Source: Armatimonadota bacterium (GTDB taxonomy: Bacteria > Armatimonadota > Zipacnadia > Zipacnadales > UBA11051). Taken from it: 64,000 nucleotides of DNA. Below the pieces are notes generated by a model. The model ran no database searches. It was given only the letters and a program-made list of their open reading frames with translations, and had not been told where the DNA came from. Positions 32,362 through 40,181 of the stretch are shown here, piece by piece. A program made the translations under genes and the position numbers. The DNA lies in contig JABLXH010000002.1 of the NCBI GenBank assembly GCA_013178155.1, positions 116,523-180,522 of the forward strand, in the 5' to 3' direction. Numbering within the stretch: the first letter of the stretch is position 1; every line of letters starts with the position of its first letter.

Positions 32362-33192
32362 TCAGGCAGTGCGCCAGGGGACCGGCAGCGACACAGCCGG
32401 CGTGACTTTGGCCGCCGGGGCGGTCTTGAGATGGGCCCCCGCCAGGTTCCAGATGGTGTTGACGACGACGATTGCGGCGGCCAGGATGGCAGCGTAGATC
32501 ATCATGGAGCCCAGCGAGTTGGTGTCCTGATCCTTGGAAAGCTTGAACAGTATGCCCATGATGAGACCTAGCGGGGGACAGAAGAAGGCACCGATGACGA
32601 GGCCGATCATGGTGAAGACTGCTACGCCGACGACATTGGGCACCTGGCCCCGGGCCACGGCAGTGATGGCCGCCGAAACCGCCCACAGACGAAGCCCCTC
32701 GCCGATGAGGCAGAGAAAGGCCGCCAGCGCCAGCCCAGCACAGACGATGAACATGATGCGCGGGTCGGAGAACAGTCCGAAGCCGAGTGCCTTGAACTGG
32801 GCGTAGGTTAGCGTCTTGATGGTGGCAAAGCCACCTGCGCTGCCCAGGAAACCCTTGGCCGCTGCGGCGAGGCCGCCGGTGAAGGCCGCCGCAAGAATGG
32901 CTGCCACCACGATCGCCGGCCGTTGCTTCCGCAGCTCCTGGGCCTGCTGCTTGTCAAAGACGCGCAGACGCTTCTCCTCGGCGCTCTCACCCGGTGCAAC
33001 CAGGCCCGCAGCCGCCGGATTGGCCGCCGCGGCCGCTCCAGTGGCTGGCTTGGCCACCGTGCGAGCATTCTGTTGGGCCTGCTTGACGATATCCACCCGC
33101 GCCTGTACGAGATCGAGACCGCAGTCAAGACACTGGGTATCAGTCTGGCTGACCTTGGCCCCGCACTTGGGGCAGTTGCTCATGACACGCAT
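32362..33192 (-). CDS. Zinc-ribbon membrane protein (hypothetical)
   Basis: CPKCG ... CLDCG zinc ribbon followed by about four TM helices. Start set at ATG 33192 with GTGAGG RBS. Confidence 0.5.
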   Translation of the reverse strand: MRVMSNCPKCGAKVSQTDTQCLDCGLDLVQARVDIVKQAQQNARTVAKPATGAAAAANPAAAGLVAPGESAEEKRLRVFDKQQAQELRKQRPAIVVAAILAAAFTGGLAAAAKGFLGSAGGFATIKTLTYAQFKALGFGLFSDPRIMFIVCAGLALAAFLCLIGEGLRLWAVSAAITAVARGQVPNVVGVAVFTMIGLVIGAFFCPPLGLIMGILFKLSKDQDTNSLGSMMIYAAILAAAIVVVNTIWNLAGAHLKTAPAAKVTPAVSLPVPWRTA

Positions 33193-33377
33193 CGACACAG
33201 CCTCACAGGAAGAATGTCTCCCACGGGAGGCGATTATAGCAGACAGCGAAGGCGTGACCAACAGGGATTGTGGTGCCTTGCCGGCCAAGCCAGAAAAGCC
33301 CGGCGCCGAGGGAGGTCCAGAAGCGCTCGCCGGTGAACTGAAACTCTCAACACGCGGTCAGGAGGCCTCTCGGGGCA

Positions 33378-35375
33378 GTGGCAGAAGCTGAAGCCAGCAT
33401 CGATACCACCCACGAACAGGTAGTGTTGGGAGGCGGAGAGCGTCTGTCAGCTGCTACCGTCATTGTGGCGGTGGGTTTCCTGGGCCTGTCTCTGTTTTGG
33501 ATGCTGCAGGCAGGGATCATCTCGCACGGGGTACAGTTGGGCGAGAGCGTGCCGGTGGTGCCGGCGGTTGGGGCGCTGTTAGTCTTGACAGTGCTGGGCC
33601 TTACGCTCCGGCGGCTGGGCTGGCGCTGGCGCGTGCCACCGGGCCAGGTCCTTTACATCTACTGCTTCCTGTGCGTGGCGGTGACCATGAACTCGGTGGG
33701 CGTGGCGCGGATGCTGTTTCCTGAAGCCACGGCGGTCTACTATTTCGCCACGCCCGAGAACGACTTCGAGACACTGCAGAAGTACATGCCCACCTGGTTG
33801 GCCCCGCAGGATCCCAAGGTCATCCAGGAGATGTACGAGGGCGCTGCCGACGAGAAGGTGCCGTGGAAGCCCTGGCTGCGGCCCCTCTTCTTTTGGACCC
33901 TGTTTCTGGGCGGTCTGTTCGTGTCCATGCAGGGGATGACGGCACTCTTCCGACGGCAATGGGCGGACAAGGAGCGCCTGACCTTCCCTATCGTGCAGCT
34001 CGTCCTGGACATCGCCGACCAGGAGGGGCGACGGGTAGTGGGGGGCTTCTTTGGCAACCCGCTCATGTGGGTTGGGTTTGGCATAGCGGCTCTGTACAAC
34101 GTTGGTAACATCCTGAACGCCTGGAATCCGGCCGTGCCGGCCATGGGTCGGGAGTACGCTATCGGGCGGTTCTTCACCGAACGGCCGCTTTCGGCGATCA
34201 ACCCGCTCAGCATCGCCTGGCGACCCGAGAACATTGGACTGGGCTACCTGGTGCCGACGGAGATCACGCTGTCGGTGTGGGTGTTCTACCTGGCCCTGCG
34301 CATCTCCAACGTTATCGCGACGGCGGGCGGATACGAGATTGCCGGTTTCCCGTTTGATCGGGAGCAATCGGCGGGATCGTACCTGGTGTTGGCGCTCTTT
34401 CTGATCTGGGTGGCGCGGGACCATCTCAAGGCCGCCTTCGCAACCGCCTTCACCGCGCATCGGCCGCTTGATGACCGCGGCGAGCCCATGTCGTATCGAA
34501 TGGCCTTCCTGGCGACCTTCGGAGGGCTGGCGCTCATGCTGGCGATTGCCCTCAAGGCCGGGATGTGGCTGGGCACCGCACTCATCTACTTTGGTCTCGT
34601 GCTGCTCTTTGCGCTGGTGTACGCCAGGGCGCGGGCGGAAGCGGGCGCAGCCATGGTGTGGCTGTTTCCGTTCTACCTGCACAAACAGATGATGATCCAC
34701 GTGGCCGGGTCGGAGCCCTTCTCGCGGGGCGGTAACTGGAGCAACCTGACCATGCTCTCCACCTTCATGTTCATCTCCCGGGGCTTCTTCCAGTCCCTGA
34801 TGGCCTACCAGATGGAGAGCACCAAGATCGCGCAGGAGGCGCGGCTGCGACAGCGAACAATGGTCGTGTGGCTGCTGAGCGCGCTGGTGCTGGGGTTGTT
34901 GGGAGCCTATGTGACCCACTTGCACGCCTACTACACCCACGGGGCGAACATCCTGGAGGGGGGCAGCACCGAGGGTGGCTATCGGGTGATGCTGGCTCGC
35001 CAGGAGTTTGAGGAGCTCTCCAGCTTCCTGAAGGCCCAGCGCCCACCAGACCTGGCGCGCACGTGGGCGGGCCTCTTTGGCGCGGTCTTCACCCTGGGGC
35101 TGATACTGGTGCGCACGTACTCGCTGCGCTTTCCGCTTCACCCGCTGGGTTTCGCCATGGTTACCTCTTACGGCGGACCGCTGTGGGGGCCGTTCCTGCT
35201 GGTGTGGATCGTCAAGACCGTGGTGTTGCGGATCGGCGGGATGCGCGCCTACCGACGTGGCATTCCGTTTTTCCTGGGGATCGTGATGGGCCACTTCTTC
35301 GTGGCTGGTCTCATCTGGGGCTGGTTGAGTATCATCAATGAGATGTACCGTCGCTACGTCGTGCATTTCGGCTAG
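33378..35375 (+). CDS. Large polytopic membrane protein, unknown family (paralog A; about 13-14 TM)
   Basis: Shares WADKERLTFPIVQL, PTEITLSVWVFYL and PLHPLGFAMVTSY motifs with the 54230-56218 protein. Start uncertain. Confidence 0.6.
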   Translation: MAEAEASIDTTHEQVVLGGGERLSAATVIVAVGFLGLSLFWMLQAGIISHGVQLGESVPVVPAVGALLVLTVLGLTLRRLGWRWRVPPGQVLYIYCFLCVAVTMNSVGVARMLFPEATAVYYFATPENDFETLQKYMPTWLAPQDPKVIQEMYEGAADEKVPWKPWLRPLFFWTLFLGGLFVSMQGMTALFRRQWADKERLTFPIVQLVLDIADQEGRRVVGGFFGNPLMWVGFGIAALYNVGNILNAWNPAVPAMGREYAIGRFFTERPLSAINPLSIAWRPENIGLGYLVPTEITLSVWVFYLALRISNVIATAGGYEIAGFPFDREQSAGSYLVLALFLIWVARDHLKAAFATAFTAHRPLDDRGEPMSYRMAFLATFGGLALMLAIALKAGMWLGTALIYFGLVLLFALVYARARAEAGAAMVWLFPFYLHKQMMIHVAGSEPFSRGGNWSNLTMLSTFMFISRGFFQSLMAYQMESTKIAQEARLRQRTMVVWLLSALVLGLLGAYVTHLHAYYTHGANILEGGSTEGGYRVMLARQEFEELSSFLKAQRPPDLARTWAGLFGAVFTLGLILVRTYSLRFPLHPLGFAMVTSYGGPLWGPFLLVWIVKTVVLRIGGMRAYRRGIPFFLGIVMGHFFVAGLIWGWLSIINEMYRRYVVHFG

Positions 35376-35450: not shown

Positions 35451-38400
35451 ATGGCTGCACGCAACTGCTGGAAGTCAACCCTGGGGTGGAGCATGGCCTG
35501 TCTGGCGTTGGTCGGGGCCTTAGCCAGCCTGGCGCCGGCGGCGATGGATTATGAGGCCCTGGCCTCGCAGATTGATATGGGGCGCCTCGTGCGGGACCTG
35601 CGGGCCATGGAGGCCCTTGGATCGCGTGTAGTTGGATACCCGGGCAATGCACGCGCCGCTGCGATGATCCAGGAGGAGTTCGAGCGCCTCGGTCTGGAGA
35701 CGATGGTCCAGGAGTACGATCTGCCGTCGCCCGTGGATTACGGCAGCAAGCTGCGGTTGGGTGATCGCGAATACGATCTGTCGGCCCTCTGGCCCAACCA
35801 TGTCCGAACGTGCCAGGTCCCGGCCGCGGGTCTCACCGGCCCCGTCATTTACGTCGGCGCCGGTTCGCTGGCCGACTTTAACGGTAAGGACACGGCCGGG
35901 GCCATCGTACTGATGGACTTTAACACCCAACAGAACTGGCTGAACGTGCCCCTGCTGGACGCCGCAGCGGTGATCTTCGTTGAGCCCCTGAGCATGACCC
36001 GCGGCGAGGCGGAGATGAAGTTCGTCCGGGCGCCCATCAATGTCCCCCGGTTCTATCTCCGGGGCACCGATGCAGCGGAGGTGCTCGCCAAGGTGGCGGA
36101 GCAGCCCGTCACCGGCACCATCAGCGCCGACGAACCACTCCGCTGGCGCAGCACCGTCAACCGCAACATCATCGGTATTCTCCCTGGCAAGGGGGGAACG
36201 CTGAGGGAAGAGCCCATCGTCCTGCAGGCTTACTATGACTCGGTCTCGGTAGTGCCCAGGCTGGCGCCCGGAGCGGAGAACGCCACGGGTATCTGTGCGT
36301 TGTTGGAGCTGGCGCGGCTGCTCACTCGCCCGGAGTATCGGCCGCAGCGCACGGTCATCTTCCTGGCCACCAGTGGGCACTTCCAGGCGCTCGCCGGTAC
36401 GCGGGAGTTTCAGGCGCTTTGGGGACGGGAGCCCCGCAAGGAGCGCAATCGCCTGGACCAGCTCAGGAAGCTCGAAGAGGAGCTGGACGAGCTCAACAAG
36501 CTCAAGGAGAAGCTCACCAGGGACCTTGCCAAGCTCAGCGAGGCGCGGGCCCAGATCACCTCGGAGACGACGTTCTTTAAGAATGTCGTTAACGTTGGGC
36601 AACTGGAGTTGTCACCCGAGGTCGCGGAGCTTCGTCTGGCCCGCCTGGATCGGGACATCAAGCGCAAGCAAGACTATATCGCTATCTGGAAGAAGCTGGA
36701 CTCGCTGGGCAAGATCCAACTGTTCATCGGCCTGGACCTGAGCACCCGCAGCGGCGCTCTGGGCCCCTTCCAGTCGGGCTGGTACTACAACCAGTCCCAT
36801 CTGCTGCGGTTCTACTCGCCTCTGGGCAAGCAATTCGCCCAGTACGCTTCGGCGGCCGCCGAGGCCCTCGGGTACAACACGGCGGATGTGTTCGTAGATG
36901 GGATCAACCCGGTCAAGGGCCGCGAGTGGCACACCTTCTTCCCGGGCAAGGTGGCCTTTGACCACGAGATGATCATCAGGGGAGGGCGGCCGGGCATTGT
37001 TCTGGCTACCGTCAACGACGGGCGACCCCTGGTGGATACGCCGCTGGACACCGTAAGCAATCTCGACCTGGCCAATCTGGAGACCCAGGTGCGGATGCTG
37101 GCGTGTATGCTGACCAGCTTCCTGAGCGATGAGACGCTGGGAGACAAGGCGCTCAAGCGCATCCGGGCGCTGAAGAAGATGGACGACCTCAAGGACATCC
37201 TGGGCACCGTGCTGGAGTTCCGTCGCCGCGACAGCTTTGTGCCTAACACCCCGGTTCCCGGCTCGCTGGTGGTCATTCAGGGCAGCTATCGGATGATGAT
37301 GGGTGTGCACACCGAAGTGCTGGCCATGGCCAATGAGACCAGTGAGTTCCTGATGCGGGGCGAAGTCGGTGGGGGCAGTATCCTGGAGGCCTACAACTTT
37401 GACAATGGTACCGGGGACGTCATCTATGCCCCGGATATGGGTCCGGACGGCGACAAGAAGTACCCACGGACGGTCCAGGGGCGGGCCGGACTGAAGCGCC
37501 CCATCATCGTCTTCAACTGCGTCCCCACTGACATCTTCGACCTCGTGGATGAGCGGTATTTCCAGACCCTGCAGAAGGTCTTCATCTACGACGCCAAAGA
37601 CTACTCGGAGCCGATCTCCTTCGGCTACAGTCTGTCTTCCATGGGAGCGTCGGCCTCGGAGTTTCCATCGTTCGTCGAGCCAGTGGGGACGATCTTCTCG
37701 ATGCCCGAGGTGGATGTCCAGGTCACCATGTCCATGGGCCTGCTGGGTGTGCGCCTGGTGCTCATCAACTCAACCGATGACCGCCCCACGGGCGTGGGCT
37801 TCCCGGCGCGGACGACACGTCGGATCGCTCTCACCCCACTTCAGGTCGGGAAGGACATGTGGCAACTGGACGAGTTCCGCATGGCCAGACTGCGGGCACG
37901 GGGCATCCAGAACGCCCGGCTGGAGCGACTGCATACCGCTGCCGCAGAATCACTTAAGGTCGCGCAGGAGGAGTTGAAGGCCCGACGCTATGACCTGGGG
38001 GTCTCGGCGGCCCGCCACGCGTGGGGCTATGAGTCCCGGGCCTACCCGGATGTGCAGAAAACGGCGATTGACGTGGTGAAGGGTGTGCTGTTCTATCTGG
38101 CGATGCTGTTGCCCTTCGCCTACTTTGGCGAGCGCCTGCTGATCGCCTCGCGCACCATCGTCGGCACCATCCTGGGCACGCTGGGTGTCTTCCTGGTGGT
38201 GTTCTTCGGGTTGGCGATGGTGCACCCGGCCTTCACTCTCACCGCCAACCCCCCCATCATCCTGCTGGCATTCATCATCATGGCCTTGGCGGTGATGGTC
38301 ATCGCGATCGTCACCATGAAGTTCAACCAGGAGCTCAAGTCCATGAAGCAGGCGCGGGGTGGGGTGCACGAGGCGGATGTGGGACGGCTGTCCGCCGCTT

Positions 38401-40181
38401 CTGCGGCGTTCAGCCTGGGCATCGCCAACATGCGGCGGCGCAAGCTGCGCACCGCGCTGACGGCGACGACGCTGGTGCTTCTCACCTTCACGGTGCTGAG
38501 TTTCACCTCGGTCCGAGAGAGCCTGCGTACCAACGAGATACGCTTGCCCCACAAGCCTGGTTATCAGGGTGTCATGTTGCGCGACCGCGCCTGGCTGTCG
38601 CTGGAGGAGCCTACGGCCTACATTCTGAAGAACGAGTTGCACAAGGTCGGGACTGTCGCCACCCGGTCGTGGTACACCTCCGGCCAGATCGACAAGGAGG
38701 CGATGATAGACGTCACCAGCGCCGCTGACACCAGTAAGAAATACGTGGTGAGCTGCATCCTGGGGCTGACGCCGCAGGAAGAGGACGTGATGGACATCAA
38801 CCGGGCAGTGATGGCTGGGCGCTGGATCAAGCCGGGTGACAAGGATGTCTGCCTGCTGCCAGCCACGGTGGCCTCTGGCCTGGGTATCAGTGAGCAGCAG
38901 CTTGGGTCCGCGGAGGTCCTGGTCTTCGGTACGCGGTTCCGTGTCATCGGCATCGTCAGCGAGAATGCCATGCGCAAGATGCGGGACCTGGACGGCGAAC
39001 CAATGATGCCTGTGAACTACGCCCTGCTTCGGCCGGAGGTGCTCAAGGAGCTCCAGCGCCAGGCCGAGCAGCGGTCGCAGTTGGGACAGACCAATGCCCA
39101 GTCCTTGCTGCAGGAGTACAAGCATTTCGGCCCGGAGAAACTCATCATCCTGCCCTATGAGCAGACGCTGCAGTTGGGTGGTACATTGCGCTCGATCGCG
39201 GTCCGCTACGAGGACCCCGAGAAAGTGCTGCCCGACGTGCGACAGATGATGAACCGCTTTGCCCTCAGCCTCTATGCCGGATACAAGGACCAGACCCTGC
39301 TGTTCAGCTCCGTGGGGGTGACGTCCTTCTCTGGCCTGGAGGCGCTGGTCATCCCGATCCTCATCGCTGCCCTGATCGTGCTGAACACGATGCTGGGAGC
39401 GGTGCATGAGCGCGTGCGAGAGATCGGCATCTACAGTTCGCTTGGCCTGGCTCCGGTCCACGTCTCCATGCTCTTCCTGGCTGAGGCCTCGGTCTTTGCC
39501 AACCTCGGCGCCATCGTGGGCTACCTGCTGGGCCAGATCGTAACGAAGGTACTCTACGCCACCGGCAGCATGCATGGCATTGAGCTCAACTACAGCTCGA
39601 TGTCGGCGGTATCGGTGACGATCGTGGTTATTCTGGTGGTGTTGTTGTCCACGCTGTACCCATCCAAGAAGGCGGGGGAGATCGCCTCTCCGGGCATCGA
39701 GCGCAAGTGGTCGCTGCCGGAACCCGAGGGCGACCTGATGACGGTGGTGCTGCCCTTCACGGTGACCGGTCGCGATGCGTGGGGCGTGTCGGCGTTCCTG
39801 AAGGAGTTCTTCGACGAGTATGTGGGCTACGCGGGCGGGGAGTTCCTGGCCGAGGACGTCAAGCTGGAGCCGGTGGACTGCGAGCGCGGCAAGGGCATGC
39901 AGGTGTCGCTGCGCATGTGGCTGGCGCCCTACGACCTGGGCGTGAGCCAGGCGTTCCGCCTGACTTGTGAACCCACCGAGGACGGCGATATCTTCGCCAT
40001 CGTGATCCGTCTGGACCGCCTCGCCGGCGACATCACGTCCTGGAAGAAGACCAACACCCTCTTCCTGGCGGGCATTCGCAAGCAGTTCCTGATCTGGCGC
40101 ACGGTGCCGCAGGCTGAGAAGGTCGCCTACGCCGACCGAGCCGAGAAGATCCTGGCGGGTGAGGAGATCGAGGTGGCTTGA
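35451..40181 (+). CDS. Giant fusion protein: signal/anchor + PA-domain + M28-peptidase-like domain (degenerate metal/catalytic residues, coiled-coil insertion) + about 330-aa unknown domain + 3 TM + MacB/FtsX-type permease domain + about 160-aa C-terminal cytoplasmic domain
   Basis: AGGAGAG RBS. M28 N-terminal LRAMEALGSRVVGYPGN, PA-like DFNGKDTAGAIVLMDF, NRNIIGILPGKG...LQAYYDSV...GAENATG. Coiled coil RKLEEELDELNKLKEKL. FtsX TM1 ANMRRRKLRTALTATTLVLL and REIGIYSSLGLAPVHVSMLFLAEA. Confidence 0.75.
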   Translation: MAARNCWKSTLGWSMACLALVGALASLAPAAMDYEALASQIDMGRLVRDLRAMEALGSRVVGYPGNARAAAMIQEEFERLGLETMVQEYDLPSPVDYGSKLRLGDREYDLSALWPNHVRTCQVPAAGLTGPVIYVGAGSLADFNGKDTAGAIVLMDFNTQQNWLNVPLLDAAAVIFVEPLSMTRGEAEMKFVRAPINVPRFYLRGTDAAEVLAKVAEQPVTGTISADEPLRWRSTVNRNIIGILPGKGGTLREEPIVLQAYYDSVSVVPRLAPGAENATGICALLELARLLTRPEYRPQRTVIFLATSGHFQALAGTREFQALWGREPRKERNRLDQLRKLEEELDELNKLKEKLTRDLAKLSEARAQITSETTFFKNVVNVGQLELSPEVAELRLARLDRDIKRKQDYIAIWKKLDSLGKIQLFIGLDLSTRSGALGPFQSGWYYNQSHLLRFYSPLGKQFAQYASAAAEALGYNTADVFVDGINPVKGREWHTFFPGKVAFDHEMIIRGGRPGIVLATVNDGRPLVDTPLDTVSNLDLANLETQVRMLACMLTSFLSDETLGDKALKRIRALKKMDDLKDILGTVLEFRRRDSFVPNTPVPGSLVVIQGSYRMMMGVHTEVLAMANETSEFLMRGEVGGGSILEAYNFDNGTGDVIYAPDMGPDGDKKYPRTVQGRAGLKRPIIVFNCVPTDIFDLVDERYFQTLQKVFIYDAKDYSEPISFGYSLSSMGASASEFPSFVEPVGTIFSMPEVDVQVTMSMGLLGVRLVLINSTDDRPTGVGFPARTTRRIALTPLQVGKDMWQLDEFRMARLRARGIQNARLERLHTAAAESLKVAQEELKARRYDLGVSAARHAWGYESRAYPDVQKTAIDVVKGVLFYLAMLLPFAYFGERLLIASRTIVGTILGTLGVFLVVFFGLAMVHPAFTLTANPPIILLAFIIMALAVMVIAIVTMKFNQELKSMKQARGGVHEADVGRLSAASAAFSLGIANMRRRKLRTALTATTLVLLTFTVLSFTSVRESLRTNEIRLPHKPGYQGVMLRDRAWLSLEEPTAYILKNELHKVGTVATRSWYTSGQIDKEAMIDVTSAADTSKKYVVSCILGLTPQEEDVMDINRAVMAGRWIKPGDKDVCLLPATVASGLGISEQQLGSAEVLVFGTRFRVIGIVSENAMRKMRDLDGEPMMPVNYALLRPEVLKELQRQAEQRSQLGQTNAQSLLQEYKHFGPEKLIILPYEQTLQLGGTLRSIAVRYEDPEKVLPDVRQMMNRFALSLYAGYKDQTLLFSSVGVTSFSGLEALVIPILIAALIVLNTMLGAVHERVREIGIYSSLGLAPVHVSMLFLAEASVFANLGAIVGYLLGQIVTKVLYATGSMHGIELNYSSMSAVSVTIVVILVVLLSTLYPSKKAGEIASPGIERKWSLPEPEGDLMTVVLPFTVTGRDAWGVSAFLKEFFDEYVGYAGGEFLAEDVKLEPVDCERGKGMQVSLRMWLAPYDLGVSQAFRLTCEPTEDGDIFAIVIRLDRLAGDITSWKKTNTLFLAGIRKQFLIWRTVPQAEKVAYADRAEKILAGEEIEVA

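What the first reader, a model, noticed from the sequence alone, without database searches (positions are those of the whole stretch)
35541..36960. The M28-like domain of the fusion protein looks catalytically dead and carries a about 100-aa coiled-coil insertion, an EnvC-like logic
Aligning by eye to M28 consensus motifs, three positions are altered. The HxDS zinc-ligand motif reads YYDS. The GA-D-D/N-xSG bridging-Asp motif reads GAENATG. The catalytic/ligand Glu-Glu pair reads HF (ATSGHFQALAG). A heptad-rich segment (RKERNRLDQLRKLEEELDELNKLKEKLTRDLAKLSEARAQ, nt about 36424-36540) is inserted between the first and second halves of the peptidase fold. A degenerate peptidase domain plus coiled coil attached to FtsX is exactly how EnvC/PcsB (degenerate LytM/CHAP-activating) partners work with FtsEX. 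Here the analogous parts are in one chain, with a pseudo-M28 instead of a pseudo-M23. This suggests a regulatory or binding role rather than proteolysis.
Basis: inference. Interest (0 to 1): 0.7.

Follow-up and report, generated by a model that had tools for sequence, protein, structure and literature searches.

The report
Remodelled M28 head on MacB-type permease
A 1,576-residue envelope protein of an Armatimonadota bacterium carries a peptidase-shaped outer domain that has lost the standard zinc-peptidase residues and is fused to a MacB-type ABC transporter permease; it belongs to a large, unstudied protein family, and its coiled-coil arm is a lineage-specific add-on, not the core of the mechanism.

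Summary

The interpretation needs three corrections.
- The replaced residues are conserved, not decayed. His310 is in 98% of 150 representatives, out of 717 clusters found, and no member keeps the Glu-Glu pair. The pocket is remodelled and under selection, not simply dead.
- The hairpin is lineage-specific. Over half the representatives have almost nothing in that loop. Chthonomonadales have two transmembrane-like segments there, and Latescibacterota have a different module.
- The permease is MacB/LolCE-like (Foldseek E 8e-13), not true FtsX (E about 1e-3).

Related genomes show a conserved cluster: a DUF6785-like membrane protein, a 330-aa protein, a PqqD-like protein, a minimal FtsX permease and a LolD/MacB-type ATPase. 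Only the DUF6785 gene is in this window.

My best reading is a non-canonical ligand-binding head driven by a type VII ABC motor. A rewired hydrolase is not excluded. I found no literature on this family.

The parts
35451..40181 (+). Whole ORF: 1,576-aa fusion protein ('GIANT') with an M28-like ectodomain and a MacB-type permease
   Evidence: ORF list. Pfam Peptidase_M28 and FtsX. Full-length homologs of 1,450-1,700 aa.
35451..35549 (+). N-terminal signal peptide or membrane anchor (aa 1-33)
   Evidence: Hydropathy window aa 13-33. Low pLDDT helix in the model.
35550..36425 (+). First part of the M28 fold (aa 34-96 and 229-325) with an inserted PA (protease-associated) domain (aa about 97-228)
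36231..36233 (+). Tyr261 codon, at the position of zinc ligand His97 of AAP
   Evidence: Tyr in 113/117 close homologs and in 74% of representatives.
36276..36278 (+). Glu276 codon, at the position of the bridging Asp (AAP Asp117, SGAP Asp97)
   Evidence: Alignment to SGAP. Glu in 106/117 homologs. Glu or Asp in most representatives.
36378..36383 (+). His310-Phe311 codons, at the positions of catalytic Glu151 and zinc ligand Glu152
   Evidence: His in 117/117 homologs and in 98% of representatives. No Glu at either position in any sequence examined.
36426..36713 (+). Inserted antiparallel helical hairpin (aa 326-421: helices 336-368 and 389-418, beta tip 380-387)
   Evidence: AF2 secondary structure and pLDDT 76-97. 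Heptad test. Most relatives match in two stretches that skip this part of the query. Lineage-specific length and content.
36714..37160 (+). Second half of the M28 fold (aa 422-570). It holds Asp429 (nt 36735-36737, equivalent to Asp179) and Asp529 (nt 37035-37037, at the His256 position).
37173..37820 (+). Beta-rich ectodomain module (aa 575-790), fold not identified
   Evidence: AF2 model strands 580-771, pLDDT mostly above 80. Conserved across the family.
37833..38087 (+). Three long helices (aa 795-879) leading from the ectodomain into the membrane
   Evidence: AF2 model H795-816, H822-843, H847-879.
38073..38321 (+). Three additional, highly conserved transmembrane helices (aa 875-957)
   Evidence: Hydropathy. 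Conservation 0.8 or higher.
38451..39674 (+). MacB/LolCE-type permease module: TM1 (aa 1001-1021), periplasmic Porter/Sabre-like domain (aa 1022-1285), TM2-4 (PF02687, aa 1286-1408) with an ERxREIG coupling-helix motif
   Evidence: Pfam FtsX E 9.5e-14. NCBIfam lolCE and MacB partial hits. Profile hits to YtrF, MacB, LolF, LolC. Foldseek MacB 5gko E 8.4e-13 against FtsX E 6e-4 or weaker. PF12704 MacB_PCD in homologs.
39678..40178 (+). Conserved cytoplasmic C-terminal alpha/beta domain (aa 1410-1576), no Pfam family
   Evidence: Conservation. AF2 pLDDT about 85. Only weak SRPBCC/START-like fold matches, E about 1e-2.
33378..35375 (+). Upstream co-directional partner gene: polytopic membrane protein with DUF6785 and DUF6784
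   Evidence: Pfam E 1.8e-122 and 2.4e-21. A homolog lies on the same strand upstream of the giant gene in 36 of 86 loci. Distant paralog of the downstream 'M681' partner in other lineages (hhalign prob 86%).

Best explanation
The region is the extracytoplasmic head of a 1,576-aa single-chain component of a type VII (MacB/LolCDE-class) ABC machine.

Domain order (shown):
- Sec signal or anchor.
- PA-domain M28 fold (aa 34-570), interrupted by a helical hairpin (aa 326-421).
- A beta-rich domain.
- A three-helix stalk.
- Three extra transmembrane helices.
- A MacB-type 4-TM permease with a Porter/Sabre-like periplasmic domain.
- A conserved cytoplasmic C-terminal domain.

The M28 site (shown): the canonical H-D-E-E-D-H constellation is replaced family-wide by Y-(E/D)-H-(F/H/Y)-D-D. 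The domain is therefore not a standard co-catalytic zinc aminopeptidase.

The mechanism (inferred):
- The remodelled, conserved polar pocket binds a ligand, most plausibly a peptide or a chain terminus of an envelope substrate. It would act as a receptor or gate, as the non-catalytic M28-fold ectodomains do in the transferrin receptor, Nicalin, nicastrin and GPAA1.
- The head is moved by ATP-driven mechanotransmission through the MacB-type module.
- The ATPase and a minimal 4-TM FtsX partner are encoded beside the gene in other lineages. In this lineage they are probably supplied in trans, possibly from a paralogous locus.
- The DUF6785 membrane protein encoded directly upstream is a conserved partner.
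- The hairpin is a clade-specific strut grown from a loop that faces the membrane. It is not the universal coupling device.
For: Fold and site:
- Motif alignments.
- The six-site pattern is YEHFDD in 82/117 close homologs, and none is canonical.
- His is at the Glu151 position in about 146 of 150 representatives, and no Glu is at 310 or 311.
- The site positions rank at the 80th-99th conservation percentile.

Family size: 717 clusters (at 50% identity) with E<=1e-30, and at least 469 species genomes.

Permease type:
- Pfam FtsX and MacB_PCD in homologs.
- Foldseek hits MacB, Spr0694/5, LolCE and HrtB at E 1e-13 to 1e-7, and FtsX only at 6e-4 or weaker.

Conserved partners:
- M681 in 49 loci, DUF6785 in 36, P330 in 33, PqqD-like in 28, and an ABC ATPase in 19-21 of 86 loci.
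- The ATPase's best NCBIfam match is LolD at 241 bits, followed by MacB, DevA, YbbA and FtsE.
- The small partner is a 209-260-aa FtsX-only permease.

Two paralogous loci per genome: four metagenome-assembled genomes (MAGs) carry both a window-type locus and an ATPase-adjacent paralog (L008/L043, L009/L051, L021/L028, L019/L067).

Hairpin as an add-on. In Chthonomonadales the same loop carries two hydrophobic segments with Kyte-Doolittle (KD) hydropathy 2.0-2.7.

Link to non-catalytic relatives:
- Nicalin is the best PDB sequence match to the core segment aa 205-330 (E 1e-5).
Against: - No ligand, substrate or phenotype is known for any member, and I found no literature.
- Strong conservation of Glu276, His310, Asp429 and Asp529 fits a metal or catalytic site as well as it fits a binding pocket. 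The title of Bzymek et al. 2005 (reference 47 in PMC3426542; PDB 2anp) calls the E151H variant of AAP 'functional'.
- No ABC ATPase is encoded anywhere in the 64-kb window. ATP coupling for this particular protein is inferred from relatives.
- I could not obtain model coordinates. The pocket geometry and the contacts of the hairpin were not examined.
- The Asp529/His256 equivalence rests on a weak profile alignment.
Confidence: 0.5

Rival explanations
1. Rewired hydrolase. The M28-like domain is still an enzyme with a permuted metal site (Glu276, His310, Asp429, Asp529, plus His311 in some lineages). It processes a substrate handed to it by the MacB-type module. This would be a one-chain analogue of YbbAP-TesA.
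For: - The replaced positions are conserved at the 80th-99th percentile across a deep family.
- The Latescibacterota pattern YEHHDD restores two His plus three carboxylates, the same ligand composition as the canonical site but in permuted positions.
- The title of Bzymek et al. 2005 (reference 47 in PMC3426542; PDB 2anp) calls E151H AAP 'functional'.
- Type VII ABC systems with a true hydrolase partner exist (PMC12646458).
Against: - Four of the five canonical ligands and the general base are changed.
- Position 311 is usually Phe, which cannot ligate a metal.
- Tyr261 replaces His97.
- No carboxylate is positioned as a general base in the alignment.
- No geometric check was possible.
Confidence: 0.25
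2. The hairpin docks onto the periplasmic domain of the FtsX-like module, in cis or in a dimer partner. ATP-driven squeezing is relayed through the hairpin to the pseudo-M28 domain, which then activates a separate cell-wall hydrolase.
For: - A confident antiparallel helical hairpin with a heptad pattern is present.
- A paralogous clade has an even longer charged coiled coil at the same site.
- The catalytic site is non-canonical.
Against: - The loop holds under 20 residues in 66 of 142 representatives and 20-40 residues in another 26.
- The sequence is the least conserved part of the protein.
- Transmembrane-like segments or an unrelated module replace it in other lineages.
- No segment of the permease co-varies in length with it.
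- The permease is MacB/LolCE-like with a Sabre-type beta insert, not an X-lobe.
- The hairpin is an internal loop insertion, not an N-terminal stalk followed by a restraining arm.
- No amidase or other hydrolase gene is conserved nearby.
Confidence: 0.15
3. Inert scaffold. The M28-like domain is only a structural spacer that holds the ectodomain together. The pocket has no ligand. The conserved polar residues replace the metals as a stabilising network.
For: - Non-catalytic M28 folds used as structural or receptor modules are common: transferrin receptor, Nicalin, GPAA1.
- Many of the invariant positions are general M28 structural motifs, such as the equivalents of xDS, GA, ND..P and T..D.
Against: - His310 at 98% and Asp429 at 91% across sequences of 50% identity or less is unusually strict for a purely structural replacement.
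- The PA domain, which caps the pocket in PA-domain aminopeptidases (general knowledge, not tested here), is also among the best conserved parts (aa 151-200).
Confidence: 0.1

Closest known systems
PA-domain M28 aminopeptidases (Aneurinibacillus AM-1 aminopeptidase 2ek8, B. subtilis BSAP/YwaD 6hc6, P. aeruginosa PaAP) and Aeromonas/Vibrio aminopeptidase AAP (1rtq)
   Same: - Shared structural motifs: RV.G, xDS, PGA, ND..P, T..D.
- Pfam PF04389 is matched above its threshold.
   Different: - Only one of the five zinc ligands is identical (Asp429). The bridging Asp is Glu, and the general-base Glu is His.
- A 96-aa hairpin is inserted.
- The domain is fused to about 1,000 further residues, including 7 transmembrane helices.
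Non-catalytic M28-fold ectodomains of eukaryotic membrane complexes: transferrin receptor, Nicalin (BOS complex), GPAA1 (GPI transamidase); nicastrin by general knowledge
   Same: - An M28 fold, membrane-tethered and without the canonical zinc site, serves as the outer head of a membrane machine.
   Different: - This protein is bacterial and fused in one chain to an ABC permease.
- The substituted residues are strictly conserved here.
- There is no evidence of common descent beyond the M28 superfamily.
FtsEX-EnvC (also PcsB, CwlO, RipC)
   Same: A type VII ABC permease is combined with a degenerate peptidase-like domain and an antiparallel coiled coil (PMC7668044).
   Different: - The fold is M28, not LytM or CHAP.
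- The hairpin is an internal, poorly conserved loop insertion that is dispensable across the family.
- The permease lacks the X-lobe and is closer to MacB/LolCE.
- No amidase partner is conserved nearby.
- All parts are in one polypeptide.
MacB, LolCDE and YbbAP-TesA type VII ABC systems
   Same: - 4-TM FtsX-family core with a Porter/Sabre-type periplasmic domain.
- A LolD/MacB-type ATPase is present in cognate operons.
- A possible heterodimer with a second FtsX-family subunit, as in LolC/LolE.
- YbbAP pairs with a periplasmic hydrolase (PMC12646458).
   Different: - An extra 870-aa ectodomain, three extra transmembrane helices and a C-terminal cytoplasmic domain.
- The partner permease is a minimal 209-260-aa FtsX with no periplasmic domain.
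- Additional conserved partners: DUF6785/M681, P330 and a PqqD-like protein.
- No adaptor or outer-membrane duct genes were seen.

Membership tests
MEROPS M28 / Pfam PF04389 co-catalytic zinc aminopeptidases | Alpha/beta aminopeptidase fold (clan MH) | tested here: met
   [not shown]
MEROPS M28 / Pfam PF04389 co-catalytic zinc aminopeptidases | Profile match above Pfam's gathering score | tested here: met
   PF04389 scores 45.5 bits against a cut-off of 21.3, but covers only profile positions 1-78 of 193 because of the insertion.
MEROPS M28 / Pfam PF04389 co-catalytic zinc aminopeptidases | Five zinc ligands: His, Asp (bridging), Glu, Asp, His | tested here: not met
   The positions read Tyr261, Glu276, Phe311, Asp429, Asp529. 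None of 117 homologs or 150 representatives is canonical.
MEROPS M28 / Pfam PF04389 co-catalytic zinc aminopeptidases | General-base Glu preceding the ligand Glu (AAP Glu151) | tested here: not met
   His310 is found in 117/117 homologs and 98% of representatives.
EnvC/PcsB-type FtsEX-coupled hydrolase activators | N-terminal antiparallel coiled coil with heptads conserved among homologs | tested here: not met
   A hairpin exists. It is an internal loop insertion, the least conserved segment, and the loop holds under 20 residues in 66/142 representatives.
EnvC/PcsB-type FtsEX-coupled hydrolase activators | The coiled coil binds the periplasmic domain (X-lobe) of FtsX | not testable with these tools
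   No coordinates, PAE or multimer prediction were available. Indirectly, no permease segment co-varies in length with the hairpin.
EnvC/PcsB-type FtsEX-coupled hydrolase activators | The partner permease is true FtsX, with an X-lobe in place of the Sabre domain | tested here: not met
   Foldseek gives MacB E 8.4e-13 and FtsX E 6e-4 to 8e-3. The periplasmic insert is beta-rich. Homologs match PF12704 MacB_PCD.
EnvC/PcsB-type FtsEX-coupled hydrolase activators | Degenerate LytM or a CHAP/NlpC domain, and a cognate cell-wall hydrolase | tested here: not met
   The domain has the M28 fold. No amidase or other hydrolase is among the conserved neighbours.
Type VII ABC transporter permeases (MacB/LolCE/FtsX superfamily) | FtsX-family 4-TM domain with a coupling helix | tested here: met
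   PF02687 E 9.5e-14 over aa 1300-1408. The ERxREIG motif is invariant. Profile hits to YtrF, MacB, LolF and LolC.
Type VII ABC transporter permeases (MacB/LolCE/FtsX superfamily) | Large periplasmic domain between TM1 and TM2 (Porter plus Sabre) | tested here: met
   The AF2 periplasmic domain has pLDDT 85-96. Foldseek hits whole MacB/LolCE chains and isolated MacB periplasmic domains 5c59 and 5lj8.
Type VII ABC transporter permeases (MacB/LolCE/FtsX superfamily) | Cognate LolD/MacB/FtsE-type ATPase | tested here: inconclusive
   None is encoded in the 64-kb window. One is present next to the gene, or 3-6 kb downstream, in 19-21 of 86 related loci, and its best NCBIfam match is LolD.
Non-catalytic M28-fold ectodomains (transferrin receptor, Nicalin, GPAA1, nicastrin) | M28 fold, membrane-tethered, canonical zinc site lost | tested here: met
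   Topology.
Non-catalytic M28-fold ectodomains (transferrin receptor, Nicalin, GPAA1, nicastrin) | Demonstrated non-enzymatic receptor or scaffold role | not testable with these tools
   This needs biochemistry.

The most novel reading that the evidence does not exclude
This family is the core of an undescribed type VII ABC envelope machine, widespread in Armatimonadota, Latescibacterota, Gemmatimonadota and candidate phyla. Its parts would be the giant M28-headed permease, a minimal FtsX, a LolD-like ATPase, DUF6785/M681 polytopic proteins, a 330-aa protein and a PqqD-like peptide chaperone. The M28-fold head would use a permuted Glu-His-Asp-Asp site to bind or process peptide or lipopeptide substrates extracted from the membrane. 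That would make it a bacterial counterpart of nicastrin, Nicalin or GPAA1, coupled to mechanotransmission.
Probability: 0.3. Interest if true: 0.75.

Novelty: new variant of a known kind. Interest (0 to 1): 0.55.

Why it matters
Type VII ABC transporters (MacB, LolCDE, FtsEX, YbbAP) do mechanical work in the bacterial envelope. Each characterised system has revealed a different job.

This family adds an architecture I found no description of. A complete but re-residued M28 fold is fused to the permease, and the gene sits in a conserved multi-gene cluster. The family is large: 717 clusters at 50% identity and at least 469 species. Databases label it only 'M28 family peptidase' or 'FtsX-like permease'.

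The finding gives a concrete, testable case of what a peptidase fold becomes when its metal ligands are swapped but kept under selection. It also offers a bacterial parallel to the M28-like heads of eukaryotic membrane complexes. Finally, it warns against annotating these proteins as peptidases.

Tried and rejected
- I looked for an ABC ATPase in the whole 64-kb window, using Walker A and LSGGQ regexes in six frames and tblastn with the operon ATPase, the small FtsX, P330 and the PqqD-like protein. None was found. Only the giant gene's own FtsX region matched.
- Gene context for four individual homologs looked unconserved at first. The conserved cluster emerged only after I clustered ORFs from 86 loci.
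- hhalign of the second half of the domain against single-sequence AAP gave only E 0.32. I keep the Asp529/His256 equivalence as moderate confidence.
- phmmer of the DUF6785 protein and of M681 against PDB found nothing. NCBIfam and Pfam found nothing for M681 or P330.
- I tested whether the upstream Zn-ribbon membrane protein is related to P330. It is not; only a CxxC match was found.
- I looked for a permease element that co-occurs with the hairpin, as an X-lobe analogue. None was found.
- Literature searches for DUF6785, M28 with FtsX, and pseudo-M28 found nothing relevant.
- I considered cell-division FtsX and rejected it on fold ranking and domain content.
- The model coordinates are not exposed by the tools. 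Distances in the pocket and hairpin packing could not be measured.
Full report
**What is there.**
The finding lies inside one long ORF, window 35451-40181 on the + strand, 1,576 aa.
- Pfam finds Peptidase_M28 at aa 239-322 (E 9.6e-12). Only profile positions 1-78 of 193 are matched.
- Pfam also finds FtsX at aa 1300-1408 (E 9.5e-14).
- Hydropathy gives the following topology:
  - signal or anchor at aa 13-33;
  - ectodomain at aa 34-870;
  - three transmembrane helices at aa 875-957;
  - permease TM1 at aa 1001-1021;
  - a periplasmic domain at aa 1022-1285;
  - TM2-4 at aa 1286-1408;
  - a cytoplasmic C-terminal domain at aa 1410-1576.

**Checking the three motifs.**
- Direct translation shows ...QAYYDSVSVVPRLAPGAENATG...FLATSGHFQALAG.
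- phmmer against PDB aligns aa 29-328 with the PA-domain aminopeptidase 2ek8 (E 1e-8), and aa 250-324 with Aeromonas/Vibrio aminopeptidase AAP.
- A profile of 83 family members gives the same alignments at E 1e-19 to 1e-20. hhalign agrees (probability 94%).
- In all of them:
  - Tyr261 replaces His97;
  - His310-Phe311 replace Glu151-Glu152;
  - GAENATG lies on GA(D/N)D(D/N)xSG.
- Against S. griseus aminopeptidase, Glu276 falls exactly on the bridging Asp97. That change is conservative.
- I recalled the AAP and SGAP sequences from memory. I checked them by confirming that the published ligand numbers fall on H, D, E, E, D, H.
  - A profile with the hairpin removed aligns LFIGLDLS on ALQLDMT, so Asp179 is kept as Asp429.
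  - hhalign and the motif NPRIHTTQDT / RPLVDTPLDT place Asp529 on His256. That alignment is weak (E 0.32), so this equivalence has moderate confidence.

**Fold and insertion.**
- AlphaFold2 with the family alignment gave a confident model of aa 1-880 (pLDDT 90.8, pTM 0.89).
- The fold is therefore complete. It is interrupted, between the strand bearing His310 and the strand bearing Asp429, by helices 336-368 and 389-418 with a small beta tip.
- Helix 1 has a significant heptad pattern: 205 of 20,000 shuffles reach the observed score. Helix 2 shows conserved hydrophobic stripes only at clade level.

**Is the site dead or remodelled?**
- In 117 full-length homologs the six positions read YEHFDD in 82, and none is canonical. 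His310 and Asp429 are invariant.
- An exhaustive search with the ectodomain found 717 clusters (at 50% identity) with E<=1e-30.
- In the best 150 representatives:
  - His occupies the Glu151 position in about 98%;
  - no sequence has Glu at position 310 or 311;
  - Asp429 is in 91%, Asp529 in 81%, Glu276 in 73% (Asp is next most common) and Tyr261 in 74%;
  - these positions rank at the 80th-99th conservation percentile of the domain.
- Latescibacterota read YEHHDD, which is two His plus three carboxylates in permuted positions.
- The canonical zinc aminopeptidase site is gone across the whole family. What replaced it is under purifying selection. That fits a ligand or metal pocket better than decay.
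- The title of Bzymek et al. 2005 (reference 47 in PMC3426542; PDB 2anp) calls the E151H variant of AAP 'functional'. The Glu-to-His change alone is therefore not proof of inactivity. The loss of His97, Glu152 and His256 is the stronger argument.

**Is the hairpin the key?**
- It is the least conserved stretch of the protein, with conservation 0.33-0.5 against 0.6-0.9 elsewhere.
- Most distant relatives match the query in two stretches that skip it.
- The loop holds under 20 residues in 66 of 142 representatives and 20-40 residues in 26 more.
- Its content depends on lineage:
  - short linkers in many Armatimonadota;
  - about 95-106 aa of charged hairpin in the window's clade;
  - 130-165 aa of coiled coil in a paralogous clade;
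  - a 116-141-aa non-coiled helical module in Latescibacterota and Gemmatimonadota;
  - about 85 aa with two hydrophobic, transmembrane-like segments (KD 2.0-2.7) in Chthonomonadales.
- The Chthonomonadales case implies that this loop faces and can reach the membrane. This is an inference.
- No other segment of the protein, including the periplasmic permease domain, changes length with the presence of the hairpin (n=288).
- The hairpin is therefore a real but accessory, clade-specific element.

**What the 'FtsX' part is.**
- A second model (aa 960-1576, pLDDT 76, with the periplasmic and C-terminal domains confident) matches MacB (E 8.4e-13), Spr0694/5, LolC/E and HrtB.
- True FtsX chains score only E 6e-4 to 8e-3.
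- The periplasmic insert is beta-rich (Sabre-like) and homologs match PF12704 MacB_PCD.
- EnvC binds the FtsX-specific X-lobe, which occupies the place of the Sabre domain (PMC7668044). That feature is not met here.

**System context.**
- The window has no ABC ATPase.
- A genome scan found relatives in at least 469 species: Armatimonadota (including Zipacnadia, Chthonomonadales, Fimbriimonadales and Fervidibacter), Latescibacterota, Gemmatimonadota and WS1.
- Clustering the neighbouring ORFs of 86 loci shows a conserved, co-directional set. After the giant gene come:
  - a 681-aa polytopic protein ('M681', 49 loci);
  - a 330-aa protein (33 loci);
  - a PqqD-like protein (28 loci; PF05402 E 1e-8 to 1e-11);
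  - a minimal 209-260-aa FtsX-only permease;
  - an ABC ATPase (19-21 loci), whose best NCBIfam matches are LolD, MacB, DevA, YbbA and FtsE.
- In a paralogous clade the order is small FtsX, then ATPase, then the giant gene, then M681.
- A DUF6785/DUF6784 protein sits upstream in 36 loci, including the window (33378-35375). It is a distant paralog of M681 (hhalign probability 86%).
- Four MAGs carry both a window-type locus and an ATPase-adjacent paralog (L008/L043, L009/L051, L021/L028, L019/L067). The ATPase for the window-type protein may therefore come in trans. This is an inference.

**Mechanism proposed.**
- Shown:
  - the architecture;
  - the loss of the canonical site;
  - the conservation of the new residues;
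  - the MacB-type permease;
  - the conserved partners.
- Inferred:
  - The M28-fold head is a non-canonical ligand-binding or gating module.
  - It is moved by ATP-driven mechanotransmission, and DUF6785/M681 proteins act as membrane partners.
  - The hairpin acts as a membrane- or partner-directed strut.
- The PqqD-like partner and the peptidase ancestry make a peptide-like ligand the most plausible. This is speculation.
- Rivals:
  - a rewired hydrolase, analogous to YbbAP-TesA (PMC12646458): 0.25;
  - an inert scaffold: 0.10.

**Comparison and novelty.**
- The protein works like a type VII ABC system with an attached (pseudo)hydrolase.
- It is a structural member of the M28 fold but fails the family's catalytic criteria.
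- It fails four of five EnvC-type criteria. The fifth could not be tested.
- Its nearest conceptual relatives are the non-catalytic M28-like heads of eukaryotic membrane complexes. Nicalin is the best PDB sequence hit for the core segment (E 1e-5).
- I found no paper on this family. Sources name it only 'M28 family peptidase' or 'FtsX-like permease family protein'.
- I rate it a new variant of a known kind, with interest 0.55.

Noticed in passing
window 33378-35375 (+): The gene directly upstream (76-nt gap, same strand) encodes a 665-aa polytopic membrane protein with DUF6785 and DUF6784. A homolog lies on the same strand upstream of the giant gene in 36 of 86 loci. It is a distant paralog of the 681-aa membrane protein that follows the giant gene in other lineages. 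Its function is unknown, and it has no PDB or NCBIfam match.
   Followed up: partly
window 32362-33288 (-): A 308-aa protein with an N-terminal zinc ribbon and several hydrophobic segments is transcribed divergently from the DUF6785 gene. The same arrangement recurs in about 18 related loci of the window's clade. It is not related to the 330-aa operon protein of other lineages.
   Followed up: partly
L040 14610-19668 (also L029, L036, L048, L058, L059, L076, L081): A conserved operon lies downstream of the giant gene in other lineages. In order it encodes a 681-aa membrane protein, a 250-330-aa protein with a CxxC motif, a PqqD-like (RiPP-recognition-element-type) protein, a minimal 209-aa FtsX-only permease and a LolD/MacB-type ATPase. 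None of these is in the 64-kb window.
   Followed up: partly
L048, L058, L061, L076, L081 (Chthonomonadales), loop equivalent to window 36426-36713: At the site where the window protein has its helical hairpin, these proteins have about 85 residues with two strongly hydrophobic, transmembrane-like segments. This suggests that this loop of the M28-like domain faces the membrane.
   Followed up: partly
window 39678-40178 (+), aa 1410-1576: There is a well conserved cytoplasmic C-terminal alpha/beta domain with no Pfam match. It gives only weak fold matches (E about 1e-2) to SRPBCC/START-like ligand-binding proteins (Rv2186c, PYL receptors). Known MacB, LolC and FtsX proteins, as far as I know, have nothing at this position.
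   Followed up: partly
window 38073-38321 (+), aa 875-957: Three extra transmembrane helices lie between the ectodomain and the MacB-type module. They are among the most conserved parts of the protein (conservation 0.8 or higher). A motif VHPAF and a conserved cytoplasmic stretch GVHEADVGRLSAA precede permease TM1.
   Followed up: no
P0116 / L003 8001-15131 (Candidatus Poribacteria): This family member has 2,376 aa, a faint LysM match and a 538-residue insertion at the hairpin site. Members of 2,400-3,000 aa (P0147, P0215, P0228, P0241) carry the ectodomain far from their N-terminus, so further fusions exist.
   Followed up: no
window 37173-37820 (+), aa 575-790: An all-beta domain of about 215 residues follows the M28 fold. 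It is confidently modelled and conserved, but the fold searches did not identify it because clan MH matches dominate the lists.
   Followed up: no
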